This document shows positions 25,441 to 57,841 of a stretch of DNA of 64,000 nucleotides, one piece after another; the first letter of the stretch is position 1; each line of letters starts with the position of its first letter. Origin of the DNA: a virus; the IMG/VR virus record IMGVR_UViG_3300025853_008930, positions 1-64,000 of that record, one strand, 5' to 3'. Position numbers and translations under genes: made by a program. The notes under the pieces are model-generated. The model searched no databases, was not told the DNA's origin, and saw only the letters and a list, made by a program, of their open reading frames with translations.

Positions 25441-26007
25441 TCATTCCTCTAAATTCTTTCTCCAATTCTTCGATTCTCTTACTTCTTCTACTTGTTCGGG
25501 TGTAAGATACATAGCAGGGTGAATATTTGCTCCCATCATACCGAATCTTTCAATTATTTCTTTTTGCTTTTCATTAACAAATTGCTTTACTTGTGGATTT
25601 TCTTCAAAGACATATATTTCAATATGAGAGGGGTCGCCATATTGACCTAAAGCATGAAAATAAATAACATCTGTAGGAAGATTAAATAAATAATCTTCCC
25701 CTAATCTTTCTTTATCTTGTTCATCAATACCATAATATGTAATTGCATCAACTTGATTATCTATTGCCCCTCCCCCAATATCTTCTCCTCCAAAATCACC
25801 ATCTATTAAATCTCTCAATATCATATCTTTAGCAATATTGACTGAATATTCTTTTGACATATAAATAATCATACGCTGAGAATCCGAAAATACCTTACTG
25901 TCTTTCCCGTATATTCTTTTAAGTTCATCTAATATTTCTTTGGTTAAATCACCAAGATATTTTTGAGCCGAAGCCCTATCCATTCTTTTTAATATATTGA
26001 ACCACAT
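25441..26007 (-). CDS. WxxILK-leader accessory protein
   Basis: Starts MWFNILK. Confidence 0.6.
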   Translation of the reverse strand: MWFNILKRMDRASAQKYLGDLTKEILDELKRIYGKDSKVFSDSQRMIIYMSKEYSVNIAKDMILRDLIDGDFGGEDIGGGAIDNQVDAITYYGIDEQDKERLGEDYLFNLPTDVIYFHALGQYGDPSHIEIYVFEENPQVKQFVNEKQKEIIERFGMMGANIHPAMYLTPEQVEEVRESKNWRKNLEE

Positions 26008-26012
26008 AATAA

Positions 26013-26675
26013 TCAATAATCCTTTATCATACTAGTTATTCCTTTATACACCATTTCGGGGTCGGACTTTGCTGATACTATGTATTTGAAACAAGGTATG
26101 CCCTTGTCATTCAACTGCCTCATCCCGTATGTAAATGGTTCAAATATTTCATGTTTATCTATGGGCTTATCGCTTTTATATTTCTCTCCCCACATATCAT
26201 ATTTGTTAGCCCATATTCCGACAGCCATAGGATAATCCACTTCTTTTTTCTTTTTACCCGAAGGCCACCTATCTGCTACAATGGTATCTACTAAAAACTT
26301 CCATGCTAATTGATGGTCTAAATTAGAAGGTGAATCTAAATGTCTATGGTCTATCATGAAAATAATATACTTTACTCTACGCTTCTGCATATCTTTAACC
26401 CATTCTTTCCAATAGATTGCTTCGCCTCCTAAGTCAGCACTTTTAATTGTATGAGAATTTCCATCAATCTTAACATTCTTTCTAGTGGCTCTATGTAAGC
26501 CAACCGTTCTTTCGCTTATTGTAGGAACTTCCCCCCTTGTTCTAAGTTGGTGGCTTAAGGTTGTTTTACCAACCATTGTAGAACCGTAAACTCCAAAGTT
26601 AATTGCATGAACTTTTTTGTAAAAACCTATTATGGCTTCACCAACAAGAATAGCAAAGCCTGTCATTATGGACAT
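26013..26675 (-). CDS. Ras/Arf-superfamily small GTPase with hydrophobic N-terminal helix
   Basis: G1 GSTMVGKT, G2 T, G3 DLGG, G4 NKYD, G5 SAK. Confidence 0.85.
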   Translation of the reverse strand: MSIMTGFAILVGEAIIGFYKKVHAINFGVYGSTMVGKTTLSHQLRTRGEVPTISERTVGLHRATRKNVKIDGNSHTIKSADLGGEAIYWKEWVKDMQKRRVKYIIFMIDHRHLDSPSNLDHQLAWKFLVDTIVADRWPSGKKKKEVDYPMAVGIWANKYDMWGEKYKSDKPIDKHEIFEPFTYGMRQLNDKGIPCFKYIVSAKSDPEMVYKGITSMIKDY

Positions 26676-26680
26676 TTTAT

Positions 26681-27202
26681 TCACCCAAAATATTTTTCTA
26701 ACATTTTTTTCATATGCTCTTTTGTTTCCATTACATCTTCATCTAGCGATAGTTCCATCCCTGCCGCACTTCTAAAATACCCTGTAATTTTAGGATAGTC
26801 ATATTCTGTTGCATCATCTATTAAATTCATTAACTCCGTCGCTTTCTTTTTTACTACTTTGTCGGGTAGATATTTATATTCTATATCTTCGTCGTGAGAA
26901 ATACCTCTAGGCATTCCCATTTCTTTTTTGTTTCTTATGTTTCTATTAACAGTGTATTCTCCATCGCCTTCTAGCCATTTTTCTTTATTTGTTTTCAAGG
27001 CTTGCTTTATCATGGGTTTTCCTTCATCTTTTATTGAATAAATTTTAGAACCAAAAAAAGCATAAATTAATGCTTCATCTAAAGAAGGAGTCCAATATCG
27101 AGTATCTTCTTTTCCCTGTGTTCCTTGAAACAACTTACTGTAAGCATTAACATAATCTTTTGATTGTATTTTGTAAGGTGCTTTTAAAATATTTTTCCAC
27201 AT
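26681..27202 (-). CDS. WxxILK-leader protein, possible ADP-ribosyltransferase fold
   Basis: MWKNILK; LFQGT...YWTPSLDEALIYA...GEY resembles the HGT/Y-T..A..YA/E ART motifs. Confidence 0.4.
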   Translation of the reverse strand: MWKNILKAPYKIQSKDYVNAYSKLFQGTQGKEDTRYWTPSLDEALIYAFFGSKIYSIKDEGKPMIKQALKTNKEKWLEGDGEYTVNRNIRNKKEMGMPRGISHDEDIEYKYLPDKVVKKKATELMNLIDDATEYDYPKITGYFRSAAGMELSLDEDVMETKEHMKKMLEKYFG

Positions 27203-27539
27203 ATTAATGCCCCCAAATATCCATTTTATTCACCTATGAATACATCTAAACCTACAAAATCCCCGTCTATTTGTTTTTCATAGTTCCAAAAAATCTCACC
27301 GTTAAACTCATCTTCATCCGCATATCTCAATTTCCAACCTAACTCATTTAATTTTTTATTTAGTTTATCCCAATCTACATCTAAAGGAAACAACAAATCA
27401 ATATCTTTTGGGTCTTCCTTTTTACCAACCGAACCCACTATTTTAGGTTTAAAATATTCTAAATCTTTTAACAATTGATTAGCAATAGAGACATAATTTT
27501 TAAGAATATTTTTCCACATATTAATGCCCCCAAATATCC
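27188..27539. repeat. 35-bp perfect direct repeat (27188-27222 and 27505-27539)
   Basis: AATATTTTTCCACATATTAATGCCCCCAAATATCC occurs twice. Confidence 0.9.
27226..27519 (-). CDS. WxxILK-leader minimal nucleotidyltransferase (Pol-beta superfamily)
   Basis: MWKNILK; IVGS...KDIDLL...LDVF catalytic pattern. Confidence 0.65.
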   Translation of the reverse strand: MWKNILKNYVSIANQLLKDLEYFKPKIVGSVGKKEDPKDIDLLFPLDVDWDKLNKKLNELGWKLRYADEDEFNGEIFWNYEKQIDGDFVGLDVFIGE

Positions 27540-27739
27540 TTAGCCCTCTCTATAATCCAACCCATTATATTGATGTCAAAGACTCCCATGATATTACCTA
27601 TCAAAAACGATGATAAGGCCGCACAAGAACCCCAAAAATACATCTTCATTTTTATAAAGAACATATCTGCTGAATGCGCCCGACTTTGATTATACACATA
27701 GTCGGACTCACTAAAGCCCATTATGTCGCCAAAGACCAA
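27521..27739 (-). CDS. Small membrane protein
   Basis: Hydrophobic stretch YFWGSCAALSSFLIGNIMGVF. Confidence 0.6.
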   Translation of the reverse strand: MVFGDIMGFSESDYVYNQSRAHSADMFFIKMKMYFWGSCAALSSFLIGNIMGVFDINIMGWIIERAKDIWGH

Positions 27740-27750
27740 TCAACCACAAC

Positions 27751-28158: not shown

Positions 28159-28167
28159 AATAAAACC

Positions 28168-28473: not shown

Positions 28474-28525
28474 ACTCTCACCTGTTCAATTGACGGAGAT
28501 AGACTCCACCTATTTAATGTAGCGA

Positions 28526-29540: not shown

Positions 29541-30878
29541 TCACTGTATGTTTGTTATCTTTCCTTGACCCTTGAAGAAGGAACATCCGACTTCACCAAT
29601 TGTTCGATACAAAGCCCTGTTACCTAGAGTTCCAACACCGAATGGGTTTCCATTGGCGATACCATCTTCAAAGTATTGTGTTGGTTTCATAACCGATAGC
29701 CACAAATGGTCTGTATCAAGGAATAGTAAATCACTTAGTTTTGTTGAAGCACTACCTGTTTGGCACATATCCTTAACAGGGATTAGTGGAATATCGTAGT
29801 ATGTTGCTACTCTAAATCCAACTTCTTGACCTTTAACTCCTCTAACACCGTTTACAGTTGGCACGACTTCTTTTCTGTCCATGAATCTTTCTTGGCTTTG
29901 TAGTAAGTCAGCAAGTGCTTGAATAGTATCATAACCTGTTAGAATAACCTTTGGAGAACCACCGGCTAGTCTTAGGTTTCTAATCATATCATTTAGTCTT
30001 GTTAGAGTTAGTGAACGAACATCTCCTGCCGCATATCCACTACCAAAGTCTACTTCTGCATCAAGGAAAGATGCCGCAGTAAATCTCTCACTACCGTAAA
30101 TCTTTCCTAGAGCGTTAGAAGCGGAAGTTGTATCAGTAGCGATAACTCCACCGTCAATTGCTAGTAGTTCTGCTCTTGAGGTAATAACCTTGTTTAGAGA
30201 AGTATAGTTGTTTCCGATATTTGGCATAGCGGATGATTCACCATAATGCTCTAGTGGCATAACCAACATTTTGTTTTGAACTTCAGCGTGATGCTTACCC
30301 ATATCTTCACGCATTTGCGCTCTAATATCGCCAATACCATCATCAATTTGTGCCATTTCCATAGCAAGTTCACTGAAATCAAATTGATGTGCAACTACTT
30401 TAGGACTCATGTTGAGTTGTGCATAAGTTGGTGCAATTGGGCCAAGTCCATCTTGTGCTGTTGAAAGTCCTGCATTTTCAGGAACACCACCAATCATATC
30501 TGCTCTTGGGCTATCCGAACCTAGTTCTGCTAAGTTTTCTGTTCCGCTTGCATCAACAGTAAACAAGTTACCGCTTCCACCGGCAGGTCGTGACTTTAGA
30601 ACTCTCCAACCACTAGAAGAATATGGCCTCTTTGAAATCATTGAAAGAGCATTAACTTCTCTATTCAACATTGACCATACTTTCTGTCCGTAAACAATGT
30701 TGTAAAGTGCTGATACATCACTAACAGCACTACCGGAGAATGATGGAGAACCATCATGTCCTGTGTGTATTCCACCAATAGCACCGGCTTGCTTCAAAAG
30801 AGCGTTACCGGCAGGTAGATTGTTTATTCCATATGTGCTTGCTTCTAAATCTGCGATTGTGTTAATATAACCTGTCAT
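29541..30878 (-). CDS. Major capsid protein (HK97 fold)
   Basis: 445 aa directly after protease/scaffold; resembles archaeal tailed-virus MCPs; highly biased codon usage. Confidence 0.85.
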   Translation of the reverse strand: MTGYINTIADLEASTYGINNLPAGNALLKQAGAIGGIHTGHDGSPSFSGSAVSDVSALYNIVYGQKVWSMLNREVNALSMISKRPYSSSGWRVLKSRPAGGSGNLFTVDASGTENLAELGSDSPRADMIGGVPENAGLSTAQDGLGPIAPTYAQLNMSPKVVAHQFDFSELAMEMAQIDDGIGDIRAQMREDMGKHHAEVQNKMLVMPLEHYGESSAMPNIGNNYTSLNKVITSRAELLAIDGGVIATDTTSASNALGKIYGSERFTAASFLDAEVDFGSGYAAGDVRSLTLTRLNDMIRNLRLAGGSPKVILTGYDTIQALADLLQSQERFMDRKEVVPTVNGVRGVKGQEVGFRVATYYDIPLIPVKDMCQTGSASTKLSDLLFLDTDHLWLSVMKPTQYFEDGIANGNPFGVGTLGNRALYRTIGEVGCSFFKGQGKITNIQ

Positions 30879-30879: not shown

Positions 30880-32112
30880 TTAAATTCCTCCTACCATTTT
30901 GTGAATGTCCGACCAATCCATTTCAGCCATCTCATCCATACTTGGGAGTTTAATTGCGGATTCTTCTTGAGCCTTTAGGATAGTTTCCTTTTCTGCTGTC
31001 AAAGATTTCCTTAGTTGTGTAAATTCATCTTTAAGAGAAGCAATCTCGCTTTGTGCATCATAGTTTTGCTTTGCGATAACATTCTCTCTTGTTGAAACTT
31101 CTCTTGCGAATCTTGCTTCAAAAGACTTCTTTAGGTTGTCATAAGCAAGTGATTCAAGTTGTTCTTGTCGGAAAGCCTCATATGCTTTCTCAATGTTTCC
31201 AACTGACAAATCAAGAGTATCAAATTCTCCATTGTTAAATGCCTTTACAACAGGCATGTCGGATGAAGTTGGCTTACCGTTGTTAATAACAATACGGTCA
31301 GCAGGTTCTCCAATTTGGTTTCCTGCACCATCAAGAGTTCTCAAGTAAGCCTTTGCTTCTTCATCTTGGTATTCTCCCATTCCCTTCTCATCTTCTGCAT
31401 CCATGTCTTCTTCATCTTCTTTGTCCATGCCGTAGTCTCCTCTCTCCATGTCATCATCAGCCATTTCTGTTTCTTTCATACCCTTTTCATCAAGAGCCTC
31501 TTCTTCTTTACGAAGCGTATTTACTTCTTCTAGCAAAGTGTCTAGTTCTGCTAGGGCTTTTTCCAGTTTATCACTCATATTATTGTCTCCTTTATCTTGT
31601 TTCAAAATATCGAATCTCGCTTCGGGGTTAATTCCTTTTTCGCATATAGTAATTTCATGCAATTCTAACTTGCTGATTTCATTATACTCACCCAAGTTTT
31701 CATTACTTTTCTTTACTTTTTGGAGGGCTTGACCTCCTATGCTAAAAGACCTTAATGACCCTTTGCGAATGTTTCTGCCAACTTCTTTGGCTTTTTCTAT
31801 ATCATCTCGTAGTTTAATTACTACAAAGAAACCAACATCATCTACTTCAGATTTCCAAAGTCTACCTGTGCTGTCTCTATAAGAATCCACAACTTCTCCA
31901 ACTTGAACATTGGAATGGTTTGTCATGACATTTCTAAATTTAGAATCTTTCATGAACTTAACAACTGCTTCTTTCAAAGCAGATAGTGTAATTAAATCAT
32001 TTTGCTTATCAACAATTTCAATGCTAGCATAGCCGCCAATCATTAAGTCGTCACTTCTAGCCTTAAGGATGGTAAACCCATCATTCCTAGTTGCTAGAAC
32101 TGCCGATGCCAT
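30880..32112 (-). CDS. Prohead protease (HK97 family) fused to scaffold
   Basis: IGGYAS..VDKQND, H (MTNHS), SFSIGG and LHEITICEKGINPEA motifs; acidic coiled-coil C-terminal half. Confidence 0.85.
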   Translation of the reverse strand: MASAVLATRNDGFTILKARSDDLMIGGYASIEIVDKQNDLITLSALKEAVVKFMKDSKFRNVMTNHSNVQVGEVVDSYRDSTGRLWKSEVDDVGFFVVIKLRDDIEKAKEVGRNIRKGSLRSFSIGGQALQKVKKSNENLGEYNEISKLELHEITICEKGINPEARFDILKQDKGDNNMSDKLEKALAELDTLLEEVNTLRKEEEALDEKGMKETEMADDDMERGDYGMDKEDEEDMDAEDEKGMGEYQDEEAKAYLRTLDGAGNQIGEPADRIVINNGKPTSSDMPVVKAFNNGEFDTLDLSVGNIEKAYEAFRQEQLESLAYDNLKKSFEARFAREVSTRENVIAKQNYDAQSEIASLKDEFTQLRKSLTAEKETILKAQEESAIKLPSMDEMAEMDWSDIHKMVGGI

Positions 32113-32171
32113 TTCGCTCAAAGGGAAAAAATTTCCTTTTAATATATAATACACACGGTTATTTTAAACAA

Positions 32172-34727: not shown

Positions 34728-35246
34728 TCACTTTGTTATTGGCCCAACTCTATCTTTTTTGAGTCTTGGACTTGTTGGAGGAATGACTTTTATTTTTTCA
34801 ATAATATATCTTTCCGAACTACCATCTGCTGACTTGGCTATAATCTGTAATTTTGCATCAGCAATAAAACTAGGATTAGATGAGGAAGAAGATTCTTGTT
34901 TTACATCACCAAATCGGTTAGCAAGGGTTTCCGTAAGTTTATCCATAGAAAATGTTTTACCAATCAAGGATTTTCCAACTAATTGTAAACCCCCCTCATC
35001 TTGTTTCTTCAAACTCTCACCTGCTAAACCATAGCCTTCTTTCTTTTGAGTTTGATTAGTAATCTTAGAAGCGTCTTGCACCTTTGGCCTCTTAATCTTC
35101 TCAACTTCGGGGTCTGTATCTATTTCCAATACTTGAGTTGGCTCAATGTTCTTTCTTTGTTTTGCGCTTAATTCTTCCTTAGCCTTTCTTGCTTTTTCGA
35201 TAGCAAGACTAATTATTCTTTCTTCTTTTGTTACTCTTTCCGGCAC
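34728..35246 (-). CDS. Hypothetical head-module protein
   Basis: Coupled ORF. Confidence 0.55.
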   Translation of the reverse strand: MPERVTKEERIISLAIEKARKAKEELSAKQRKNIEPTQVLEIDTDPEVEKIKRPKVQDASKITNQTQKKEGYGLAGESLKKQDEGGLQLVGKSLIGKTFSMDKLTETLANRFGDVKQESSSSSNPSFIADAKLQIIAKSADGSSERYIIEKIKVIPPTSPRLKKDRVGPITK

Positions 35247-35494
35247 TACTGACCACCTACATTTTCTACCATCTTATGAATGTCTTTCCATTCCATGTTT
35301 CCTACATCCTTTAATGGAGAACCACCAATGGTTCCGTTATTCATCTTAGGAGTCGGACTATCAACAACAACAAAGCCGGACTTCATTAGTAAGTTATCGT
35401 CATTGTAAACTGCTTTCTCTAAACTTTCTATCTTAGCACTAAGGGCTTTAATAATCTCAAGTAGTTCTTGATTAATTGTATTTTCTTCACTCAT
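35246..35494 (-). CDS. Small coiled-coil protein ending in scaffold-like WKDIHKMV motif
   Basis: C-terminus MEWKDIHKMVENVGGQ versus scaffold MDWSDIHKMVGGI. Confidence 0.65.
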   Translation of the reverse strand: MSEENTINQELLEIIKALSAKIESLEKAVYNDDNLLMKSGFVVVDSPTPKMNNGTIGGSPLKDVGNMEWKDIHKMVENVGGQ

Positions 35495-35499
35495 ATTTA

Positions 35500-35688
35500 T
35501 CACTTCATTTTATCCGCTAGGACAAACGGTGGACTCCCGTTATACACAAGAACCTTCTCACGGTTCTTATTAAAAATATATCCTATTGCGTATATTGCCT
35601 TTCCAGTATCCAAGTCTTTTCTTTCTCTCACAACTATTCTCTTAGTGTATAGAGGCAAGTCTTCTTTAATTATATTTTTCCAACTCAT
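35500..35688 (-). CDS. WxxILK-leader protein
   Basis: MSWKNIIKE. Confidence 0.6.
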   Translation of the reverse strand: MSWKNIIKEDLPLYTKRIVVRERKDLDTGKAIYAIGYIFNKNREKVLVYNGSPPFVLADKMK

Positions 35689-39430: not shown

Positions 39431-39658
39431 TCAAAATGGAATATTCTCTTTCTTACCTCTCCTCTTTTGTGGGGGTAAGATAACATCGGGAACATCATTA
39501 GATGCTCTTATTGCTTTATGAGTTGTATCCGGTGGTAGTCCACCAACAGAAAAATCACGATTCTTCGTGGTCTTTCTAGTATCATTTGCATTCTGTGTTC
39601 TAACTTTCGCTAATTCTTTCTTTAGTCTAATCTCTTTCTGTCTATTATCTTCTGTCAT
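39431..39658 (-). CDS. Hypothetical protein
   Basis: Coupled to the portal stop. Confidence 0.55.
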   Translation of the reverse strand: MTEDNRQKEIRLKKELAKVRTQNANDTRKTTKNRDFSVGGLPPDTTHKAIRASNDVPDVILPPQKRRGKKENIPF

Positions 39659-41304
39659 TAACCTGTCCTCCTTTCACTCCTTCTATCTACATTTTGATTA
39701 CCTGCGTCTTCCGGTAATCCGCTTAATCTTTTATCCGGCCCAACACTCATAGAAGGTTTATTTCTAGTAGCCGGTGGATTTTCTTGTGGCTTACTACCGC
39801 CACCTTCTGCAAACATTCTTGTTTGTTCATCTAAATCTCTTTGGTCTAAATTAGAACCTGCTAGTGGGTCTTTTTCTATGGGTCTTCCATCATCATCCAT
39901 TTGTTGTTCATCTTCTTTTGGTTCGGGTTTCTTGTAAGTAAAGTTACCATCCTCATCCATATCAACTTCAAAGCCTAAGTTCTTTATTGATGCCGCAATA
40001 TTGACTTCAATCTCTTTCTTTCTTAGTCCTGCAATCTCATCTTCTTCTTCGCTAGGAGGCAACTTCAACTTCCAATCTGTAATGCCAAATTGCTTTACAA
40101 GATAAGGAAATACATATTCATTGTAAACATTCTGTGCCATTTGAACTGCTCTATTAGTTACAAGTATTTGCATACCTTCATTGTTTAAGCCGCCACTTGT
40201 AGTATTATCAGCCATGAAGACTTTACTGACACCATAGAACGCTGATATTCTATCTCTCAAATCATCCTTAACAGAAATATAATCCATTTCTTTTAGGCTA
40301 TCCATGAACTTAATCCACTCAACAGCACCTTTACCGCCTTCTGCTTCTATACCCATAACAGGAATAAAGTGCGGGTCTGCCTCCATCTTTTCTTTTACTC
40401 CTCTCCAAAAGGCTCTCATTGAATCCATGTTTCTAGTTTGAACCGCTAACAAACCTCTTGGCATTCTGCTCTTAGTATAGGCTGAATTGACATAGTTCTC
40501 CATAGCAATTAAAGTCATGATATGATTGTAAAGTGTAATTACAGGGGAAAAACCGTAAAGTCTTGAAGGACTATACTTACTAAAATGTAATACTTCTCCT
40601 TCGATGAAATACTGTTCATCACCTTTTGCTCGATTGACATAATGAATAGGCATAAGAGGAGAGCCACAAGTTTCACAACTATCGTGTGGTTCTGTTGAAA
40701 TAATATCTCTATGATGAACACAAGTAAATCCTTTGTTACCCTTTACGCCATCTTCATCGGCATAAATAAACATAGTAACAGGGTCGCCACGATACACTTC
40801 CTTAACACGGTGCATTCTAATTTTACCATTACCATCCAAGAAATATTCTTTGACCATAACTATGTATGCGTCATCCATAATATTCAAATCGTCTTCCAAT
40901 TCCTTCAACACATCAATAAATAATTGCTCGGATGAGTTTACATAACCCTCTAAGAACTTTTCAGCATATTCTAATTGCTTAACATCGGGTATTTTTAAAT
41001 CAGTAGAGCCACATCTTGAACACTCTTGAACAGGTCTTGTGTGGGTTTTTCCGCAATTGTTACACTTTGCTTCAAATGCTTTTTCCCAAACATAGCCTCT
41101 TCTGTAGACTTCCTGCTTTAGTTGAGTTATACAAGTTCTAACAATTACTGATTGTTGAACCATAGAATAGATGATGGGGGCTGTCATCATGTAATTGTTC
41201 TGCCTTTCTTGAATACCCATGTTGTAGATATTCCTGTCAGCAGGTTTCGGAGTAGTGCGCCTGAAAAGATTAGTGAAAGAGAACCGCCTTCTTTTTTCTG
41301 CCAC
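39658..41304 (-). CDS. Portal protein with zinc-ribbon insertions
   Basis: YGFSP, RISAFYGVS and VFPYLVKQF portal-like motifs; size and position. Confidence 0.8.
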   Translation of the reverse strand: MAEKRRRFSFTNLFRRTTPKPADRNIYNMGIQERQNNYMMTAPIIYSMVQQSVIVRTCITQLKQEVYRRGYVWEKAFEAKCNNCGKTHTRPVQECSRCGSTDLKIPDVKQLEYAEKFLEGYVNSSEQLFIDVLKELEDDLNIMDDAYIVMVKEYFLDGNGKIRMHRVKEVYRGDPVTMFIYADEDGVKGNKGFTCVHHRDIISTEPHDSCETCGSPLMPIHYVNRAKGDEQYFIEGEVLHFSKYSPSRLYGFSPVITLYNHIMTLIAMENYVNSAYTKSRMPRGLLAVQTRNMDSMRAFWRGVKEKMEADPHFIPVMGIEAEGGKGAVEWIKFMDSLKEMDYISVKDDLRDRISAFYGVSKVFMADNTTSGGLNNEGMQILVTNRAVQMAQNVYNEYVFPYLVKQFGITDWKLKLPPSEEEDEIAGLRKKEIEVNIAASIKNLGFEVDMDEDGNFTYKKPEPKEDEQQMDDDGRPIEKDPLAGSNLDQRDLDEQTRMFAEGGGSKPQENPPATRNKPSMSVGPDKRLSGLPEDAGNQNVDRRSERRTG

Positions 41305-41341: not shown

Positions 41342-41575
41342 TTATAGAATCTTCGCAAAGGCTTTCCTCAATACATTTCTCCAATTACCTTTTTTTCTAC
41401 CATAATTTTTTGTTTCGTATTGTTTAGGATTTTTATTTGCATAAAGAGCCGCCATGTATTTTTTTGCCCTAGATTTGGACAAAGGGGTTTTATTTTTGGC
41501 CTTACCTGTATCGGTATTAATAACATAGTAGCCGTTTTTTCCGACTCTTAATTCATAAGGCAAGGCATTCACCAC
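41342..41575 (-). CDS. Small basic protein with C-terminal WRNVLRK motif
   Basis: Coupled ORF. Confidence 0.55.
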   Translation of the reverse strand: MVNALPYELRVGKNGYYVINTDTGKAKNKTPLSKSRAKKYMAALYANKNPKQYETKNYGRKKGNWRNVLRKAFAKIL

Positions 41576-41856
41576 AACTTCTTACATGCTAGACATTTAG
41601 GTGTTGTGATTCTACCTTTGCATTGGTCACAATTATGTCTTGCTTTAAAATTAGCCCTACGCTTTTTGTTGGTATGAGTTCCACCGCCCCTATTCTTTCC
41701 TTTGCCTTTGTAATTGCCATATCCTTTAGCACCTGCATGAATCTTTTTTCCTTCATGAGTAAGCATCATAATTTTTTTACCTTCTCTATCGGAAGGATAT
41801 ACACGACCTACTCGCATGTCTTTCTTATCTTTTTTACACACATCGAACCAAGTCAT
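41569..41856 (-). CDS. Basic protein with leader variant MTWFDVCKK
   Basis: KIHAGAKGY...RRANFKARH...W. Confidence 0.6.
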   Translation of the reverse strand: MTWFDVCKKDKKDMRVGRVYPSDREGKKIMMLTHEGKKIHAGAKGYGNYKGKGKNRGGGTHTNKKRRANFKARHNCDQCKGRITTPKCLACKKLW

Positions 41857-42257
41857 TGCTTACCCCTCATTTGATTTTCTTTAGAACGCTTATCGTCTTT
41901 TATCGGGCCGCCTTTAGCCCATGTTCTACAAGACCTAGCCGAATGACATTTAAAATGGTGCATCCAACAATAACCTAATTTACCATCATCATCTAATTCT
42001 AACGGCATACATTTTTCCATTCTAGGACTAATATCAAACGCTACACAATTACCGCAGTTAGAATCCATAGCGGCTTCTACTGATGTATTCCAAAAGTCTG
42101 CAATATCTTCCCAATAATCTTCGGGCTTGTCTATATTAAGTGGGCCATATTGTATATGTTCTGCTTTTATGGCGGCATTTCTATTCTTAGTGTTTAACTT
42201 CAAATCCTGTGTTGCTCTAGGACAAGTAAGTTCCTTTAGAATAATATGCCAACTCAT
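41853..42257 (-). CDS. WxxILK-leader Cys/His-rich protein
   Basis: MSWHIILKE; CGNC...YCWMHHFKCHSARSC. Confidence 0.65.
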   Translation of the reverse strand: MSWHIILKELTCPRATQDLKLNTKNRNAAIKAEHIQYGPLNIDKPEDYWEDIADFWNTSVEAAMDSNCGNCVAFDISPRMEKCMPLELDDDGKLGYCWMHHFKCHSARSCRTWAKGGPIKDDKRSKENQMRGKQ

Positions 42258-42261: not shown

Positions 42262-42678
42262 TCATCTCGGACTATGTGTGTAAATATCTCCATCTTTGTG
42301 CATGAATATTTTACCTTCTTTTTCTAATTTCTTCAAGGCCGCTTTAATCTCGGTTTCCTTTCCAAATTGTTTTAGGTTTTTCATTCCTAATGCTCCGCCC
42401 TCTTTCTTAATTTCTCTTAAGATTTGACGCTCTAATTTTGCTGTCTTCATTCTAGGACTAATGTTCATAAAGTCTGTCATTTCTTCGGGGTCTTTACCAA
42501 AAATAGATTTCTTAACCTTTCTTCGTTTAAGTTCATCAAAATCTGCACCTGTTATTTTTCCTTTCGGTTTAGCCACATCTAATTTTTTTTGCCCACCATA
42601 AAGCATCTTTTCATCTTCTTTATGAGTTCCACAATGGGCTTTCTCATCTTCTGTTTTTAGTATGTCTTTCCAACTCAT
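42262..42678 (-). CDS. WxxILK-leader protein with winged-helix-like C-terminus
   Basis: MSWKDILKT; ALKKLEKEGKIF. Confidence 0.6.
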   Translation of the reverse strand: MSWKDILKTEDEKAHCGTHKEDEKMLYGGQKKLDVAKPKGKITGADFDELKRRKVKKSIFGKDPEEMTDFMNISPRMKTAKLERQILREIKKEGGALGMKNLKQFGKETEIKAALKKLEKEGKIFMHKDGDIYTHSPR

Positions 42679-43025
42679 CTTGTAAATCCCCTGCCTCTAC
42701 TTTTTGTTTTTTCTTTACTCGCTTCCTTTCTTTGCTTGGCGTAAGTGTGTGCCGCTTTTAGCCTTTTCTTTACTTTACGGTCTTTAGCATTTTTAACTGC
42801 GGCTCGTAATCTTTGCTCCACTAAATTGATTATTTGTGATTGTCTTTTATGAGACTTAGATTTGAATGCACTACTACTAAATGTTTCTTGAACATCTTTA
42901 ACGGTTCTAAATTTTACAGGAACAGTATCTTTTGGGTTTTCATCTGTGTATAATCTTCTTGCTGAACCTTTTGGTTTTTTACCCGTTCCTTTTTTCGGGT
43001 CAGCCTTCAAGATATTCTGCCACAT
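42675..43025 (-). CDS. WxxILK-leader basic protein
   Basis: MWQNILKA. Confidence 0.6.
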   Translation of the reverse strand: MWQNILKADPKKGTGKKPKGSARRLYTDENPKDTVPVKFRTVKDVQETFSSSAFKSKSHKRQSQIINLVEQRLRAAVKNAKDRKVKKRLKAAHTYAKQRKEASKEKTKSRGRGFTR

Positions 43026-43336
43026 TATGCTCCCTTCCTCCTTTTGTAAGTTTTACAAGCGGCACAAGTTGGCCTACATCTTTGTTTAGTTCCTTTAGAA
43101 GCATCCGGTCTTCCGCAAGGTTTTGTTCCTTTTTTATCATCTTCACATGATTGACAAGAAACCCAACCTTTTGCTTTACCACTACCGCCTCTTCTTTGAA
43201 ACCATCCATGAAGACCGGACTCTTTTTCTCTCTTGAAATTGTCTCCGCCCTTTCTTCTTTGTTTCTTCTTATATCTTTTAGCACCGCTTCTTCTTCGAGC
43301 CTTGCTCTTTTTTTGAAGAATGTCCTGCCATGTCAT
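43025..43336 (-). CDS. WxxILK-leader basic Cys-containing protein
   Basis: MTWQDILQKK. Confidence 0.6.
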   Translation of the reverse strand: MTWQDILQKKSKARRRSGAKRYKKKQRRKGGDNFKREKESGLHGWFQRRGGSGKAKGWVSCQSCEDDKKGTKPCGRPDASKGTKQRCRPTCAACKTYKRRKGA

Positions 43337-43341: not shown

Positions 43342-43572
43342 TCACTTCTTAGATTTGTTGCCCCAATTATCCGCACCAACTTTACGACATCTAACTAAAG
43401 CACCGCTAGCATAAGCGGAAGGCCACTTATCATATCTGCTACGAACTTTGTAATAACAAGCATCTTGTTTTTTATCGGACTTACGATTTCTGCGGCCTTT
43501 TTTCTTAGCCCGCTTAGAACCTTTTTTTCTTCGAGACTTACTCTTTTTTTGAAGAATATCTTGCCAACTCAT
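43342..43572 (-). CDS. WxxILK-leader basic protein
   Basis: MSWQDILQKK; DACYYKV..RY..WPSAYASG. Confidence 0.6.
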   Translation of the reverse strand: MSWQDILQKKSKSRRKKGSKRAKKKGRRNRKSDKKQDACYYKVRSRYDKWPSAYASGALVRCRKVGADNWGNKSKK

Positions 43573-45076: not shown

Positions 45077-46507
45077 CTAAAAGTTAATTCCCATGACTCC
45101 TTGAGAGCGTTTATACTTATTGACCTTTGGCGGGTCAAATAACCCCATGTCATCTAAGAGTATGAATGTTTCACTCATCGTATGAGTAGCGGCATTAGCC
45201 AACGCTAAACTCATAACCATGTCGTCATGCGCCCCTATTCCCTCAAACTTTCCTTTGTCTGTAATAGCAAACATAGATAATTCTTCTATTAAAGTAGAAG
45301 TAACTCGACGACTTTCTTCATTAGCGTAAGGTAATATTATCTTACCATTTTCAAAGTTCATTTGTAGACTTAGAATAATCTCTTCTTTCTTTTTCCTAGT
45401 GGTGTTAAAGTCGTGAACATTTAAATCTGTAACATTTCTAATCTCTTGTGTAAATGATTTAGCAAATGTATTTGTTTCAAACAATATTGCTTCGGGCTGA
45501 AATACTTTACCGATTAATTTCACCTTCTGTATATTCTCTCTAAACTCTACATTCTTAGAACGGTCAATATACACAATAGTTTTGTTATCATTTTCATCAA
45601 CTTCTAATACAGTAATTACATTATAATCTCCATCAGTAGAAATAGCGGGGTCAATGCCAACATAATATTTGTAGCCCTCTCTACGCATTGGTTTCAAAAC
45701 ATGGTCTTTGCTCTTTGCCGCTTCCAAATATTCGGGATTGAATAGAGAAGTTCCTGTAGATATTGGAACACACATATATTCTCTTGTAAACATTAGAGAG
45801 CCGACTTCAGCCTTTCTCGCCATAAGAGCATCATAATCCCATCTATTCGGCCATAGCGGTTCGTTAAGAGCATTAAGACAAGGATATGTTCTAAGAGTAT
45901 ATGCAGGGTTTTCAGCGAGTTGTTGGTAAATATCTGTATAACTAAATGGAGTTCCAATAACTCTTAGAGAAGCAGTATGGTGAAGTGTTGGTATCATGTC
46001 ACCATAAAACCAATCTGTAACCTTTTGAATTCCTGTCATACTAAACTCTTTCAAAGGGTCGTCAATGATAATCTCTTGAGGGTGAAGTCCACGAATCTGT
46101 GAACCGACAGAACGCTCTAAGATTTGATTACCATTAGTAAGTGTGATATTTCCAATTGCCCAACCCTTTGCCGGTTTGTATTTCTTTAACATTGGATGAT
46201 TGAATAGTTTATCTATATCTCTCATGTGAACCAAAGTCTGTTTTTGGTTAGAAGAAATGTATAGCATTTGATATGGTGGTTCTCTAAACACTAAATTCCA
46301 TACAACCCAAGCATGCATAAATACTGATTTACCGTGACCTCTTGAACAAATGATAACAGTTCTTTGTGTATCGTTCATCAAATCGTGCCACTCTTCTTGG
46401 TGCTTGGCGAACTCCCAACCTAGAACTTGCTGAAAGAAATAAGGAAATGAGTTTTTAGATAATTCCATATCCATTTGATGCTCAAAGTTAAATGCGTCTA
46501 TATCCAT
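45077..46507 (-). CDS. terL: Terminase large subunit
   Basis: SRGHGKS, IIIDD, IGTP, GIDPA and HDDMV motifs. Confidence 0.9.
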   Translation of the reverse strand: MDIDAFNFEHQMDMELSKNSFPYFFQQVLGWEFAKHQEEWHDLMNDTQRTVIICSRGHGKSVFMHAWVVWNLVFREPPYQMLYISSNQKQTLVHMRDIDKLFNHPMLKKYKPAKGWAIGNITLTNGNQILERSVGSQIRGLHPQEIIIDDPLKEFSMTGIQKVTDWFYGDMIPTLHHTASLRVIGTPFSYTDIYQQLAENPAYTLRTYPCLNALNEPLWPNRWDYDALMARKAEVGSLMFTREYMCVPISTGTSLFNPEYLEAAKSKDHVLKPMRREGYKYYVGIDPAISTDGDYNVITVLEVDENDNKTIVYIDRSKNVEFRENIQKVKLIGKVFQPEAILFETNTFAKSFTQEIRNVTDLNVHDFNTTRKKKEEIILSLQMNFENGKIILPYANEESRRVTSTLIEELSMFAITDKGKFEGIGAHDDMVMSLALANAATHTMSETFILLDDMGLFDPPKVNKYKRSQGVMGINF

Positions 46508-52087: not shown

Positions 52088-52231
52088 CTACTTCATAGCA
52101 TATCTTTCTATTTCATCTATCGCTGTCTTAACATACTTAGGGGCTGACTTCATACTATCTCTTAGTGTTGCTAAGGCTTGAGCAATCATAGCCTCATCTA
52201 TATCTTCTTTAATTATATCTTGCCAATTCAT
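52088..52231 (-). CDS. 47-aa WxxILK-leader peptide
   Basis: Manual translation MNWQDIIKEDIDEAM...; GGTGA RBS. Confidence 0.6.
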   Translation of the reverse strand: MNWQDIIKEDIDEAMIAQALATLRDSMKSAPKYVKTAIDEIERYAMK

Positions 52232-53348: not shown

Positions 53349-53708
53349 TCACTTGTAGAACTTGAAGGAAATCAAAGGTTCATTATCAAATTCTTCACTA
53401 TCAATAAAAACACTTTCCGGTTCTAAATCTCCTAAGAATCCATGTTTTACATTTTGGAAATCTATACCTAAAATTTGTATTAGATAGCCCTCCATATTTG
53501 TAAATTCAAATGGTTCAAAACCATCTTTAAATTCTACTTTGTGAACTTCTAATGCCATAGCAATAGTTTCGCTACTTCTATCAATATCCAAACTCCATGT
53601 AACAAAACATTTCTGTCCATCTTGGTCTTTGTATTTTTTACTATCTTTAGACATTACTCTACATTCAGTCGTCAGTTTATCTTGCTTTTTCAGTTCGTCT
53701 TTCCACAT
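53349..53708 (-). CDS. WxxILK-leader variant protein
   Basis: MWKDELKK. Confidence 0.55.
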   Translation of the reverse strand: MWKDELKKQDKLTTECRVMSKDSKKYKDQDGQKCFVTWSLDIDRSSETIAMALEVHKVEFKDGFEPFEFTNMEGYLIQILGIDFQNVKHGFLGDLEPESVFIDSEEFDNEPLISFKFYK

Positions 53709-55472: not shown

Positions 55473-55484
55473 GTCAAACCCTCT

Positions 55485-55784: not shown

Positions 55785-55785
55785 A

Positions 55786-56013: not shown

Positions 56014-56015
56014 AA

Positions 56016-56465: not shown

Positions 56466-56818
56466 TTCTTACCCACCTGTCTGCCTTCTCCTGAAAATGG
56501 ATTATATGGAATATTTCTCGCTTTTCTTCTAGCCCTCATAGGCATTGAGTTAGTTTTATTACCTGCCATTCCAAACCCTACCTTTTTTCCTTTTCTTTGC
56601 TTAGTTTTACCCTTTGGTTGTGGTTGTCCAAAACTAGGTGAATCTGTTACATTACCAAACTCTTCTTCTAGTTCTTGCATTTCTGCATCTCTAACCTTTT
56701 TAGAACTTCGTCGTTCAACCCCAAGTTTCTTTTTTTGACGGTCATCTATTTTCCTTTCTATTGCTCTCAACCTACCTTCGGTAAAATATGGCTTTTTTAG
56801 TATATCTTGCCAAGTCAT
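56462..56818 (-). CDS. WxxILK-leader basic protein
   Basis: MTWQDILKK. Confidence 0.6.
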   Translation of the reverse strand: MTWQDILKKPYFTEGRLRAIERKIDDRQKKKLGVERRSSKKVRDAEMQELEEEFGNVTDSPSFGQPQPKGKTKQRKGKKVGFGMAGNKTNSMPMRARRKARNIPYNPFSGEGRQVGKK

Positions 56819-56922
56819 TTCTTACCACCTGTAACAAAACACTTCTTTGACTTTGCCTCTTTCTCATCAACTTCTTTTGACTTTGCATCAAACCACTTAT
56901 CGAGATAACTACACCTTGTCAT
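56815..56922 (-). CDS. 35-aa peptide
   Basis: Manual translation MTRCSYLDKWFD...; GGTGA RBS and ATGA overlap. Confidence 0.45.
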   Translation of the reverse strand: MTRCSYLDKWFDAKSKEVDEKEAKSKKCFVTGGKK

Positions 56923-56923
56923 A

Positions 56924-57265
56924 TTATTCACCTTCGGGGCCATAATCTCCTACATATCGAGCAAGTCTTAAAATTTCTTCAGCCACATCTCTAGCCTCAA
57001 ATTCCAAACCTGCTAATTTATCATAGAACTCTATTATTTTATTCTCATCATAATCTCTATTATCCCTGTTGTAGTCTCTTACTTTTTCAAAGAGTTTTAT
57101 GTAGTAATCTCTTGCGTCTACAGCCGGATTTTTTTCGTGCATTTCCATTAATTCAAATTTTGTTCTCACTAAACCTCTTATTAATTTAGACCTTGAGTCC
57201 ATAGACCTTTCTCGTCTATCAATTGCATCTCCTAAATCTTTTCTTATTTCGTCTTTCCATGTCAT
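56924..57265 (-). CDS. WxxILK-leader variant protein
   Basis: MTWKDEIRK. Confidence 0.6.
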   Translation of the reverse strand: MTWKDEIRKDLGDAIDRRERSMDSRSKLIRGLVRTKFELMEMHEKNPAVDARDYYIKLFEKVRDYNRDNRDYDENKIIEFYDKLAGLEFEARDVAEEILRLARYVGDYGPEGE

Positions 57266-57274
57266 ATTATTCAC

Positions 57275-57421
57275 CTACTGTAATTTTTTCAACATTAGTG
57301 CCGCTTTAGAACAAACTTTCCTTAGTAGGTCTGCATCATACATATCTTGTTTACTTGCATCCTCTAAATAATCTATCACATGCTCAAGCCCTTTTTGTTT
57401 AATTATATCTTCCCATGTCAT
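57275..57421 (-). CDS. 48-aa WxxILK-leader peptide
   Basis: Manual translation MTWEDIIKQKGLEHV...; GGTGA RBS. Confidence 0.6.
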   Translation of the reverse strand: MTWEDIIKQKGLEHVIDYLEDASKQDMYDADLLRKVCSKAALMLKKLQ

Positions 57422-57463
57422 ATTATTCACCTTTTATTTTAAACGCTTTTTTCAAAAATTTTT

Positions 57464-57841
57464 CTAGGATTTTTTTCTACCGGCTTCTTTCATTTCATCA
57501 CGATATTCAAATAGAGTTTCCTGTATTGCTTTTTCTATTGCTTGTGTTATTTTATAAAAGCGATTATTAGGGAATGAAAAACCCACAACAGGGTAGGCTT
57601 CAAACTTGTCTGCAAAATAAAGATAGGATTTATGTAATATCTCTCGTATATTTGCATAATCTAAATAATCAACCCCATCAACTATCTCAAAGGGGGTTTT
57701 TTCATTAAGATTATAATGTTCTCTACCATCAAAAATAATACTTTTCGCCTCTTCTCGGCTCATTGAACCACCCGCCTTTCTTCTAGCATCTATGTTTTCA
57801 CTATGCTCACTCGTTTTTTTAACGGTATCTTTCCAATTCAT
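57464..57841 (-). CDS. WxxILK-leader variant protein
   Basis: MNWKDTVKK. Confidence 0.6.
   Translation of the reverse strand: MNWKDTVKKTSEHSENIDARRKAGGSMSREEAKSIIFDGREHYNLNEKTPFEIVDGVDYLDYANIREILHKSYLYFADKFEAYPVVGFSFPNNRFYKITQAIEKAIQETLFEYRDEMKEAGRKKS

What the first reader, a model, noticed from the sequence alone, without database searches (positions are those of the whole stretch)
25441..57841. At least 22 unrelated proteins share an N-terminal M(x)WxxILK leader: candidate capsid-loading address tag
Seen at minus-strand starts 26007, 27202, 27519, 35688, 41856, 42257, 42678, 43025, 43336, 43572, 52231, 52681, 53708, 53991, 55472, 55784, 56013, 56465, 56818, 57265, 57421 and 57841 (e.g. 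MWKNILK, MSWKDILK, MTWQDILKK, MNWENIIK, MAWQSILK; a few are variants). Sequences after the leader are unrelated and codons within it vary, so it is conserved as peptide. It occurs only in the packaging/head part of the morphogenesis region, not in tail, replication or array genes. Established: T4 internal proteins use a short N-terminal capsid targeting sequence (IPIII MKTYQEFIAE) removed by the prohead protease, and the HK97 protease cleaves after Lys. Inference: an archaeal-virus equivalent ending in Lys that loads a variable payload for injection.
Basis: partly seen in the sequence, partly recalled or inferred. Interest (0 to 1): 0.9.

Follow-up and report, generated by a model that had tools for sequence, protein, structure and literature searches.

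The report
Shared address tag on virus proteins
In a very abundant group of marine archaeal tailed viruses, about twenty otherwise unrelated small proteins per genome begin with the same eight-residue peptide, which resembles the capsid-scaffold's tail and most likely addresses them into the capsid, though this is untested.

Summary
All 22 listed minus-strand genes start with M(x)W-x-x-[IV]-[LI]-K: 11 matches to the strict DNA pattern against 0.03 expected by chance. The rest of each protein is unrelated to the others. The genome is a magrovirus-like archaeal tailed virus. The tag occurs on 381 distinct proteins in 120 families in related IMG/VR contigs, always on the late morphogenesis strand and never on core virion or replication proteins. 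It is about 100,000-fold rarer in 596 Gb of prokaryote genomes.

New here:
- The best non-N-terminal matches to the tag in the whole proteome are the C-termini of the prohead protease-scaffold fusion and of an 85-aa scaffold-like protein.
- The tag is a movable module. One cargo domain occurs without a tag in distant viruses, and with variable inserts between tag and domain.
- A sister lineage carries a different tag, M-x-x-F-x-x-A-W-x-V-L-K, including on that same domain.
- Tagged proteins are all soluble and strongly acidic or basic.

Best reading (about 55%): a capsid-interior targeting peptide, like the T4 CTS or the 80alpha RIIK hook. Cleavage after Lys and injection into the host are untested.

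An overlapping window of this same genome produced the same note earlier in the scan. I found no published description.

The parts
25441..26007 (-). tagged gene, MWFNILK, 188 aa, acidic
26681..27202 (-). tagged gene, MWKNILK, 173 aa
27226..27519 (-). tagged gene, MWKNILK, 97 aa
35500..35688 (-). tagged gene, MSWKNIIK, 62 aa
41569..41856 (-). tagged gene, MTWFDVCK, 95 aa, DUF5754 domain. Distant homologues lack the tag, and one carries the type-2 tag.
41853..42257 (-). tagged gene, MSWHIILK, 134 aa, Cys-rich, one of the most conserved cargo families
42262..42678 (-). tagged gene, MSWKDILK, 138 aa. Tag helix, then disordered linker, then C-terminal winged-helix domain.
42675..43025 (-). tagged gene, MWQNILK, 116 aa, pI 11
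43025..43336 (-). tagged gene, MTWQDILQ, 103 aa, 33% K+R
43342..43572 (-). tagged gene, MSWQDILQ, 76 aa, 37% K+R
52088..52231 (-). tagged gene, MNWQDIIK, 47 aa
52241..52681 (-). tagged gene, MSWKDIVK, 146 aa, pI 4.3
53349..53708 (-). tagged gene, variant MWKDELK, 119 aa
53710..53991 (-). tagged gene, MWKNILK, 93 aa
55077..55472 (-). tagged gene, MSWEEVLK, 131 aa
55485..55784 (-). tagged gene, MNWENIIK, 99 aa
55786..56013 (-). tagged gene, MAWQSILK, 75 aa
56016..56465 (-). tagged gene, MTWQDILK, 149 aa
56462..56818 (-). tagged gene, MTWQDILK, 118 aa
56924..57265 (-). tagged gene, variant MTWKDEIR, 113 aa
57275..57421 (-). tagged gene, MTWEDIIK, 48 aa
57464..57841 (-). tagged gene, variant MNWKDTVK, 125 aa
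35685..36047 (-). 120-aa near-core gene with a split tag (MTWDYYEEGKEF-TIK). Some orthologues have the canonical MWELILK.
30880..32154 (-). prohead serine protease (S78) fused to an acidic, coiled-coil scaffold. The C-terminal tag-like peptide MDWSDIHKMV lies at 30892-30921.
35246..35503 (-). 85-aa scaffold-like protein. Its C-terminal MEWKDIHKMV (35267-35296) is the best non-N-terminal match to the tag profile in the whole proteome.
41342..41575 (-). 77-aa protein with a C-terminal variant NWRNVLRK (41363-41386), conserved in 10 of 10 relatives
29541..30878 (-). major capsid protein (HK97 fold, SU10/halovirus type). It is the presumed receptor. The N-terminal INTIxDLEAxTYG and LLK (residues 27-29) are invariant.
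39658..41304 (-). portal protein, an alternative receptor
45077..46507 (-). terminase large subunit. It separates the two main blocks of tagged genes.

Best explanation
The octapeptide (M)-x-W-x-x-[IV]-[LI]-K is a modular address label. It is a short amphipathic helix ending in a hydrophobic-hydrophobic-Lys hook.

Proposed mechanism (inferred):
- The tag lets soluble accessory proteins made from the late operon dock to the inner face of the assembling procapsid.
- It uses the same kind of contact that the C-terminal peptide of the protease-scaffold fusion uses. The most probable receptor is the N-arm / A-P cleft of the HK97-fold MCP.
- The proteins are thereby enclosed, stay in the head with the DNA, and are delivered to the next host cell.
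- The tag may be clipped off after the Lys by the S78 prohead protease.

Shown here:
- The tag exists and is selected at the peptide level.
- It is modular and interchangeable between lineages.
- It is restricted to the morphogenesis operon.
- It is virus-specific.
- It resembles the scaffold C-terminus.

Inferred, not shown: binding to the shell, encapsidation, cleavage and injection.
For: 1. Strength and specificity of the observation.
- 11 strict matches against 0.03 expected in the window.
- 288 tagged ORF starts on the coding strand against 4 on the other strand in 1.28 Mb of relatives.
- 29 strict matches, all on one strand, in five 100%-complete relatives, with 0 in reversed-pattern controls.
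- 10-15 matches per Mb in these viruses against 0.00012 per Mb in 596 Gb of prokaryote genomes. Those were 71 scattered single hits, none in multi-hit contigs.

2. Selection acts on the peptide.
- All Leu codons are used, and information content drops sharply right after K.

3. Only accessory proteins carry the N-terminal tag.
- Portal, MCP, protease, TerL, ligase and tail proteins never carry it.
- Tagged families are tagged in nearly all members. Most apparent exceptions are miscalled starts.

4. The tag is a separable module.
- In the DUF5754 family, distant homologues P0335-P0342 start MAKNPKKDMRCGE... with no tag.
- Close relatives have the tag fused directly, or separated from the domain by inserts of 20-55 aa.
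- P0309 carries the other lineage's tag on the same domain.

5. A sister lineage has its own tag.
- In the P0129-type protease lineage the type-1 tag is absent: 5 on the coding strand against 10 on the other in 947 kb.
- That lineage has a type-2 N-terminal tag, M-x-x-[AP]-F-x-x-A-W-x-[VIL]-[LI]-K, with an ATG mostly 7-8 codons before W, on unrelated proteins.
- The core pattern gives 31 matches on the dominant strand, 2 on the other, and 1 in controls, in five genomes.

6. Resemblance to the scaffold C-terminus.
- A profile built from 220 tags was scanned over all 113 proteins of the genome.
- Its best non-N-terminal hits are the C-terminus of the 85-aa scaffold-like protein (10.5 bits) and of the protease-scaffold fusion (8.2 bits).
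- In shuffles, P(max>=10.5) = 0.044 and P(second protein>=8.2) = 0.008.
- The C-terminal peptide M-[SD]-W-x-[DE]-[IV]-H is conserved in 54 of 66 and 56 of 70 relatives, and in distant protease-scaffold homologues.

7. Precedent.
- The T4 CTS loads internal proteins and GFP into the prohead core and is cut off by gp21 (PMC7411985; PMC9958956).
- A segment of HK97 protease gp4 loads GFP into capsids (PMC11626933).
- The 80alpha scaffold and the unrelated SaPI1 protein CpmB share a C-terminal helix-and-hook with RIIK. It binds the MCP N-arm and the A-P cleft (PMC5644958).

8. The properties of the tagged proteins fit encapsidated cargo.
- 0 of 120 family representatives has a hydrophobic TM-like segment.
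- pI is bimodal: 53 acidic, 53 basic, 14 neutral.
- Several are 30-37% Lys+Arg.
- One conserved cargo is tag helix, disordered linker, winged helix.

9. Tagged gene content turns over faster than untagged content among close relatives.
- Mean Jaccard is 0.28 against 0.42.
- 2 of 47 tagged families are near-universal, against 8 of 83 untagged families.
Against: - There is no direct evidence that any tagged protein is in a virion.
- The resemblance to the scaffold C-terminus is strong only in this lineage. At position +4 the tag has Leu where the scaffold has His. The type-2 tag of the sister lineage looks much less like that lineage's scaffold tail (MSWDEVHQLA). Tags and scaffold tails therefore do not obviously co-vary.
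- Twenty or more different cargo species per capsid is many, although SPN3US heads hold about 50 proteins (abstract).
- The ILK-like strings near the N-terminus and at the end of the protease domain are conserved strands of the S78 fold in distant homologues. They do not indicate a cleavage specificity.
- About half of the tags (M-S/T/A/G-W) should lose the initiator Met. In a few proteins the tag is internal, behind a roughly 40-aa module. The 'Met is part of the motif' idea is therefore weak.
- One tagged protein has a PAP2 Pfam hit, which is unexpected for capsid cargo.
Confidence: 0.55

Rival explanations
1. The tag addresses late proteins to a different hub than the capsid interior. Candidates are the portal or head-completion site, the tail, a virus assembly factory, the virus-encoded GroES/GroEL chaperonin, or an egress machine. 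The proteins would act in the producing cell and would not be packaged.
For: - The tag is confined to the late operon, and three tagged genes sit between the connector and tail genes.
- The genome encodes a Cpn60 chaperonin.
- No binding partner was demonstrated.
- The tag and the scaffold tail differ at position +4, and the type-2 tag differs more.
Against: - The closest internal matches to the tag are exactly the scaffold and protease C-termini. Structural precedent places such peptides on the MCP.
- According to Philosof 2017, chaperonins are present in only 12 of 26 magroviruses.
- Small, highly charged, fast-turning-over proteins made at the very end of infection are hard to explain unless they are carried to the next cell.
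Confidence: 0.2
2. The tag is mainly a pro-peptide or protease substrate signal. It would keep potentially toxic effectors inactive, or mark them for processing by the S78 prohead protease, with cleavage after the invariant Lys. Targeting would be secondary or absent.
For: - K is 95% conserved, and conservation stops exactly after it.
- Both tag types end in [VIL]-[LI]-K.
- The MCP has an invariant LLK at residues 27-29, after a variable stretch.
- The T4 CTS ends at its cleavage site.
Against: - No cleavage data exist.
- The ILK strings in the protease are fold elements.
- The sister lineage's MCP N-terminus lacks LLK.
- An 8-residue peptide followed by a disordered linker is unlikely to inhibit unrelated folds.
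Confidence: 0.1
3. The tag is a recognition or acceptor motif for the virus-encoded ubiquitin-like conjugation kit (ThiF/E1-like gene and its neighbours). The invariant Lys would be the modified residue.
For: - A ThiF-family gene is present.
- It occurs in 5 of 5 complete type-1-tag genomes and in the P0128-lineage genome. It is absent from 4 of 4 sister-lineage genomes, which lack type-1 tags.
- hydrophobic-K-x-[DE] occurs in about 30% of tags.
Against: - The co-occurrence rests on two lineages only, so it is confounded by phylogeny.
- The sister lineage keeps a tag ending in L-K without any ThiF gene.
- The Ubl and JAB assignments were not confirmed by Pfam.
Confidence: 0.05
4. The shared start reflects DNA- or RNA-level function (translation-initiation enhancer, recombination linker for cassette exchange) or common descent of one fast-diverging paralogue family. 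On this reading it is not a protein signal.
For: - The invariant ATG..TGG and tight gene packing, with overlapping stop and start codons.
- The high turnover of tagged genes could use conserved 5' ends for recombination.
Against: - Synonymous codons vary freely at I, L and K, and substitutions are conservative at the amino-acid level.
- The same motif occurs at C-termini and, rarely, internally.
- Untagged homologues exist, and a different tag sits on the same domain.
- There is no residual similarity among the 22 proteins.
Confidence: 0.05

Closest known systems
T4 capsid targeting sequence (CTS) of internal proteins IPII/IPIII/Alt
   Same: - Short N-terminal peptide of about 10 aa shared by otherwise unrelated, non-essential, often highly charged proteins.
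- Encoded by the virus.
- In T4 it directs them, and GFP, into the prohead core.
   Different: - No sequence similarity.
- T4 uses a different protease (gp21) and a separate scaffold core.
- T4 has about 4 tagged proteins, against 22 or more here, and 120 or more families across relatives.
- The host is an archaeon.
- Two lineage-specific tag versions exist here.
- Encapsidation and cleavage are unproven here.
80alpha scaffolding protein / SaPI1 CpmB C-terminal helix-and-hook (RIIK motif)
   Same: - A short amphipathic helix ending in hydrophobic-hydrophobic-Lys.
- It is shared by a scaffold and by an unrelated protein.
- It binds the N-arm and A-P cleft of an HK97-fold MCP.
- Here the tag (..ILK) resembles the protease-scaffold C-terminus.
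   Different: - In 80alpha the motif is C-terminal and serves capsid-size control, not cargo loading.
- Here it is N-terminal on many cargo proteins.
- No structural evidence here.
HK97 maturation protease gp4 encapsidation segment
   Same: An S78-family protease carries a terminal segment that is sufficient to load foreign protein into the HK97 capsid (Duda et al. 2013, cited but not held in the library).
   Different: - In HK97 the segment is known only on the protease itself.
- HK97 has a delta domain instead of a scaffold.
- No family of cargo proteins re-uses the signal there.
Encapsulin cargo-loading peptides
   Same: A terminal peptide on diverse cargo that docks to the inner face of an HK97-fold shell. 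Cargo genes lie near the shell gene (abstracts).
   Different: - Different consensus.
- Mostly C-terminal.
- The shells are cellular compartments without terminase, portal or tail, usually with one cargo type.
N-terminal propeptides of ejection proteins in giant phages (SPN3US, phiKZ-like)
   Same: Many head-internal proteins carry N-terminal regions that are proposed to target them to the prohead and are then removed by the prohead protease.
   Different: Those propeptides are 110-130 aa long and are not a shared short motif.

Membership tests
T4-type capsid targeting sequence | Short N-terminal peptide shared by otherwise unrelated virus proteins | tested here: met
T4-type capsid targeting sequence | Tagged proteins are found inside proheads or virions | not testable with these tools
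   No proteomic data. Indirect only: late-operon location, solubility and charge.
T4-type capsid targeting sequence | Tag removed by the prohead protease at a consensus site at its end | tested here: inconclusive
   - K is 95% conserved and conservation ends there.
- The MCP has an invariant LLK.
- The ILK strings in the protease are fold elements.
- The sister lineage's MCP lacks LLK.
T4-type capsid targeting sequence | Sequence or evolutionary relationship to the T4 CTS and the gp21 system | tested here: not met
   The protease is S78/HK97-type, not gp21-type. The tag is unlike MKTYQEFIAE.
Scaffold/protease capsid-binding terminal peptide (80alpha RIIK, HK97 gp4) | The same peptide is present on the virus's own scaffold or protease terminus | tested here: met
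   The top non-N-terminal profile hits are the scaffold-like and protease-scaffold C-termini. They are conserved in relatives. The resemblance is weaker for the type-2 tag.
Scaffold/protease capsid-binding terminal peptide (80alpha RIIK, HK97 gp4) | Amphipathic helix plus hydrophobic-hydrophobic-basic hook, flexibly linked to the rest of the protein | tested here: inconclusive
   The AF2 model shows helix 3-11 at pLDDT about 60, then disordered residues 11-22, then a folded domain. Confidence in the tag itself is low.
Scaffold/protease capsid-binding terminal peptide (80alpha RIIK, HK97 gp4) | Physical binding to the MCP N-arm / inner surface | not testable with these tools
The MCP monomer model is too poor: pLDDT 55 overall, and under 50 for residues 1-92.
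Encapsulin cargo-loading peptide | The shell is a non-viral compartment, with a CLP consensus on the cargo | tested here: not met
   Terminase, portal, protease and tail genes are present. The consensus is different.
Secretion / membrane signal peptides (Sec, Tat, class III) | Hydrophobic h-region or twin-arginine after a short charged N-terminus | tested here: not met
   0 of 120 tagged family representatives has a segment with Kyte-Doolittle >=1.6 over 19 aa. The tag is followed by charged residues.
Magrovirus (Magrovirales, group B-like) archaeal tailed virus | MCP related to halovirus MCPs; ATP-dependent ligase inside the structural module; chaperonin; archaeal-type replication and transcription genes; about 90-100 kb marine genomes | tested here: met
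   - MCP hits are only archaeal tailed viruses.
- Ligase domain at 32172-34721.
- Cpn60 and a TFIIB-like Zn-ribbon protein.
- ERCC4 nuclease.
- Relatives are 91-96 kb.
- Description of the group in Philosof 2017.
- No direct comparison with a named magrovirus sequence was possible.

The most novel reading that the evidence does not exclude
The tags are lineage-specific 'postcodes' of a large protein-delivery system in archaeal viruses. More than 100 families of soluble effectors would be loaded into capsids by an 8-13-residue label that copies the scaffold's capsid anchor. The two magrovirus lineages would use mutually distinct labels, so a cargo gene has to change its label when it moves between them. 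A still stranger reading is not excluded: the invariant Lys could be the acceptor for the virus's own ThiF/E1-type ubiquitin-like conjugation kit.
Probability: 0.4. Interest if true: 0.9.

Novelty: new variant of a known kind. Interest (0 to 1): 0.8.

Why it matters
Magroviruses are among the most abundant viruses of the surface ocean, and neither they nor their hosts (Poseidoniales) are cultivated. Most of their genes are dark matter.

- A recognisable address label would sort a fifth of the genome into one functional class: putative packaged and injected proteins. It would give a handle to find anti-defence and host-takeover factors of archaeal viruses.
- It would be the first cargo-loading signal described for an archaeal virus. 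It would be by far the most widely used one in any tailed virus: 22 per genome, and at least 120 families in the roughly 3 Mb sampled here.
- The label is 8 residues long and apparently portable, so it could become a tool for loading proteins into HK97-fold particles.
- The hypothesis can be tested without culturing the virus, by co-expressing the MCP, the protease-scaffold and tag-GFP.

Tried and rejected
No binding test was possible.
Distant protease lineages were reached through the search for related loci instead. The scan with P0131 found no relatives.
- The AF2 model of the MCP was too poor to say anything about the N-arm or the LLK site. Mean pLDDT was 55, and under 50 for residues 1-92.
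- Pfam and PHROGs on the 22 proteins, and Pfam on 114 family representatives, gave almost nothing. There was DUF5754, weak winged-helix hits, and six families in total. The ESM Atlas gave only unnamed viral clusters.
- I first read the ILK strings at residues 29 and 183 of the protease-scaffold as cleavage sites. I rejected this because the same strands, FxILKS and FD/EILx, are conserved at the edges of the S78 domain in distant homologues.
- I looked for co-variation between scaffold tails and tags across lineages. Tails stay M-S-W-x-E-V-H while the tags switch type, so there is no clean co-variation.
- Halovirus HCTV-1 has the nearest cultivated MCP relative. Its head module has no such tags.
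- Literature: there is no mention of the motif in the magrovirus papers read or in string searches. Duda et al. 2013 is not held.

Full report
**What the window is**

The window is part of an 80.7-kb IMG/VR virus record, estimated 86% complete. The minus strand from about 4.4 to 58 kb is one long morphogenesis operon:
- terminase large subunit at 45077-46507
- portal at 39658-41304
- an S78 prohead protease fused to an acidic coiled-coil scaffold at 30880-32154
- an HK97-fold MCP at 29541-30878
- a protein with an ATP-dependent ligase domain at 32172-34721, inside the head module
- a tail tube gene, with further tail genes, at 18272-20281

Several lines point to an archaeal virus of the magrovirus kind:
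- Among 50,697 phage and archaeal-virus records, the MCP matches only archaeal tailed viruses. These are haloviruses HCTV-1, HVTV-1 and HCTV-5, and Methanomassiliicoccales and Methanofastidiosa viruses.
- The plus-strand modules encode an ERCC4/HhH nuclease, a TFIIB-like protein, a ThiF/E1-like protein and a Cpn60 chaperonin.
- Gene content, marine origin, and the 91-96 kb size of complete relatives fit the magroviruses of Marine Group II archaea. The ligase inside the structural module and the GroEL-type chaperonin point to group B (Philosof 2017).
- I could not compare directly with a named magrovirus sequence.

- Every one of the 22 coordinates is an ATG with an SD-like element upstream, and encodes M(x)W-x-x-[IV]-[LI]-K or a close variant.
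- In six frames the motif occurs 23 times. Twenty-two are these starts.
- The strict DNA pattern occurs 11 times, against 0.03 expected by chance.
- After trimming the first ten residues the 22 proteins share no detectable similarity.
- Across 270 unique tags from relatives, W is invariant, K is 95%, I/V 93% and L/I 93%. The next position carries under 1 bit. Five different Leu codons are used in comparable numbers.
- Selection therefore acts on an 8-residue peptide whose boundary is the Lys.

**Distribution**

- In 80 contigs whose portal is at least 80% identical, 288 tagged ORF starts lie on the coding strand and 4 on the other.
- Over all type-1 loci I collected 381 distinct tagged proteins in 120 sequence clusters.
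- Core proteins (portal, MCP, protease, TerL, ligase, connector and tail proteins) are never N-tagged. Families that are tagged are tagged almost throughout, and most exceptions are upstream in-frame start miscalls.
- Five complete relatives carry 4-7 strict matches each, all on one strand, clustered upstream of the portal.
- The most common codon pattern occurs at 10-15 per Mb in these viruses. In one genome for each of 185,579 prokaryote species (596 Gb) it occurs as 71 scattered single hits, which is about the chance level.
- The label is therefore a property of this virus clade, not of cells.

**The tag is a portable module**

The 95-aa protein at 41569-41856 contains a DUF5754 domain that begins right after the tag. 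Its homologues show three states:
- Distant homologues at 45-49% identity start MAKNPKKDMRCGE... with no tag.
- Closer homologues have the tag fused directly, or separated from the domain by unrelated inserts of 20-55 residues, with the tag always staying at the end.
- One homologue, P0309, carries a different N-terminal peptide, MVSPFNLAWSLLK.

That second peptide is the standard label of a sister lineage, the one with a P0129-type protease and genomes of 86-107 kb:
- The type-1 tag is absent there: 5 against 10 on the two strands in 947 kb.
- Unrelated proteins begin M-x-x-[AP]-F-x-x-A-W-x-[VIL]-[LI]-K, with the ATG mostly 7-8 codons before W.
- The core pattern is found 31 times on the dominant strand, twice on the other and once in controls, in five genomes.
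- Both labels end in hydrophobic-hydrophobic-Lys.

In a handful of proteins the type-1 tag is internal, behind a roughly 40-aa module. In gene 35685-36047 it is split by an insertion.

**Link to the scaffold**

- The protease-scaffold fusion ends ...MDWSDIHKMVGGI.
- A neighbouring 85-aa protein, which shares the scaffold's C-terminal region, ends ...MEWKDIHKMVENVGGQ.
- Both tails are conserved in relatives, in 54 of 66 and 56 of 70.
- A profile of the tag scanned over all 113 proteins of the genome puts exactly these two sites on top of the non-N-terminal hits, at 10.5 and 8.2 bits. Proteome shuffles reach these values in 4.4% of trials for the best hit and 0.8% for a second protein. The chance that the top hits land in the last 15 residues of the scaffold proteins is far smaller still.
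- A further variant closes the 77-aa protein at 41342-41575.
- Among 150 representatives of distant protease homologues, many protease-scaffold fusions end in (K)M-S-W-x-[DE]-[IV]-[HNE]-x-[LMA]. The scaffold tail is therefore an old, widespread element.

Precedent from other systems:
- In 80alpha, the C-terminal 16-21 residues of the scaffold form an amphipathic helix and a hook with the motif RIIK. [quoted passage not shown] The unrelated SaPI1 protein CpmB carries the same motif and binds the same site (PMC5644958).
- A segment of the HK97 protease loads GFP into HK97 particles.
- The T4 CTS is the classical N-terminal version.

**Nature of the tagged proteins**

- They are short (median 109 aa, maximum 480).
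- None of the 120 representatives has a membrane-like segment.
- pI is sharply bimodal, 53 acidic and 53 basic.
- Several in this window are 30-37% Lys+Arg.
- Only 6 of 114 representatives have any Pfam match.
- The conserved family at 42262-42678 is predicted as tag helix (residues 3-11, low confidence), disordered linker (11-22), variable middle and a C-terminal winged helix. The winged helix has pLDDT 80-86 and Foldseek target-normalised TM 0.7-0.84 to WH domains, but with E>0.01.
- Tagged gene content differs more between close relatives than untagged content.

**Interpretation**

The simplest model consistent with all this is a capsid-loading label that copies the way the scaffold and protease anchor to the shell. 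It explains four things:
- why only accessory, soluble, highly charged proteins of the late operon carry it
- why it is terminal and flexibly linked
- why a cargo domain changes label when it is found in the other lineage
- why the scaffold itself carries the nearest look-alike

I put this at about 55%.

The extra claim that the tag is cut off after Lys is plausible but unsupported:
- The sharp boundary, the T4 analogy and the invariant LLK in this lineage's MCP speak for it.
- The protease's own ILK strings are fold elements, and the sister lineage's MCP lacks LLK.

Delivery into the host is inference from timing of expression only.

**Rivals**

- Targeting to another late hub, such as the portal, tail, factory or chaperonin (about 20%).
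- A processing signal or pro-peptide without targeting (about 10%).
- A motif for the virus's ThiF-type conjugation kit (about 5%). The ThiF gene is present in all six type-1 genomes tested and absent from four sister-lineage genomes. That is two lineages only, and the sister lineage keeps an L-K-terminated tag without ThiF.
- A DNA/RNA-level signal or common descent (about 5%). This is contradicted by codon variation, C-terminal copies and untagged homologues.

**Novelty and limits**

I found no description of this motif in the magrovirus papers read or in full-text string searches. An overlapping window of the same genome produced the same note earlier in this scan, including the resemblance to the scaffold C-terminus. 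I re-derived that and tested it here.

The kind of thing, a capsid-targeting peptide, is known from T4, HK97, 80alpha and encapsulins. What is new is the scale, the archaeal-virus setting and the two interchangeable lineage-specific labels.

The binding step therefore remains entirely inferred.

Noticed in passing
L162-L235, L424-L426 (sister-lineage IMG/VR records, e.g. L424:1200-8900 minus strand): A second, lineage-specific N-terminal tag, M-x-x-[AP]-F-x-x-A-W-x-[VIL]-[LI]-K, sits on unrelated and often larger proteins (134-665 aa). A short subtype, M-D-[FL]-A-W-R-L-L-K, also occurs. The motif is also found at the C-terminus of a 258-aa protein (..SSFRDAWSVLKS).
   Followed up: partly
G000 73083-73667 (beyond window; L423:9083-9667): A ThiF/E1-family gene (Pfam E=1e-15) lies next to a TFIIB-like protein and a Cpn60 chaperonin. 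It is present in all 6 type-1-tag genomes tested and absent from 4 sister-lineage genomes. The neighbouring Ubl and JAB candidates gave no Pfam hit.
   Followed up: partly
window 29541-30878 (MCP residues 1-60): The first 59 or so residues have no counterpart in the halovirus MCP alignment. They contain an invariant INTIxDLEAxTYG and an invariant LLK (residues 27-29), separated by a stretch of variable length. This could be a short propeptide or N-arm receptor.
   Followed up: partly
L031, L045, L058, L063, L099, L113, L115 (e.g. L115 ORF with motif at residue 25): A roughly 40-aa N-terminal module, MPIRKVKGGYKWGSKGKVYRNRKDAERQAAAAYASGY, precedes an internal copy of the tag in some cargo proteins. 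A similar start (MPIHKKRGKWFWGSQGPF) heads a 1236-aa protein, P0158, whose C-terminus is an S78 protease domain.
   Followed up: no
window 32172-34721: An 849-aa protein with an ATP-dependent DNA ligase domain lies between the scaffold-like genes and the protease, inside the head module. Philosof 2017 noted this for magrovirus groups A and B. It is itself untagged.
   Followed up: no
window 43712-45067: A 451-aa protein with a weak HNH-endonuclease PHROG hit lies between TerL and the block of very basic tagged proteins. It is conserved in 54 relatives.
   Followed up: no
window 46516-47298: A 260-aa untagged protein has an internal tag-like string, KKWQMVLKKS, at residue 160. It is the third-best non-N-terminal profile hit at 7.0 bits. 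Its meaning is unknown.
   Followed up: no
L427 (halovirus HCTV-1, 7523-19641 of locus): In the nearest cultivated MCP relative, the space between portal and MCP is filled by five very large proteins instead of many small tagged genes. They are 1046, 675, 296 (Mu gpF-like), 1210 (zeta-toxin domain) and 665 aa.
   Followed up: no
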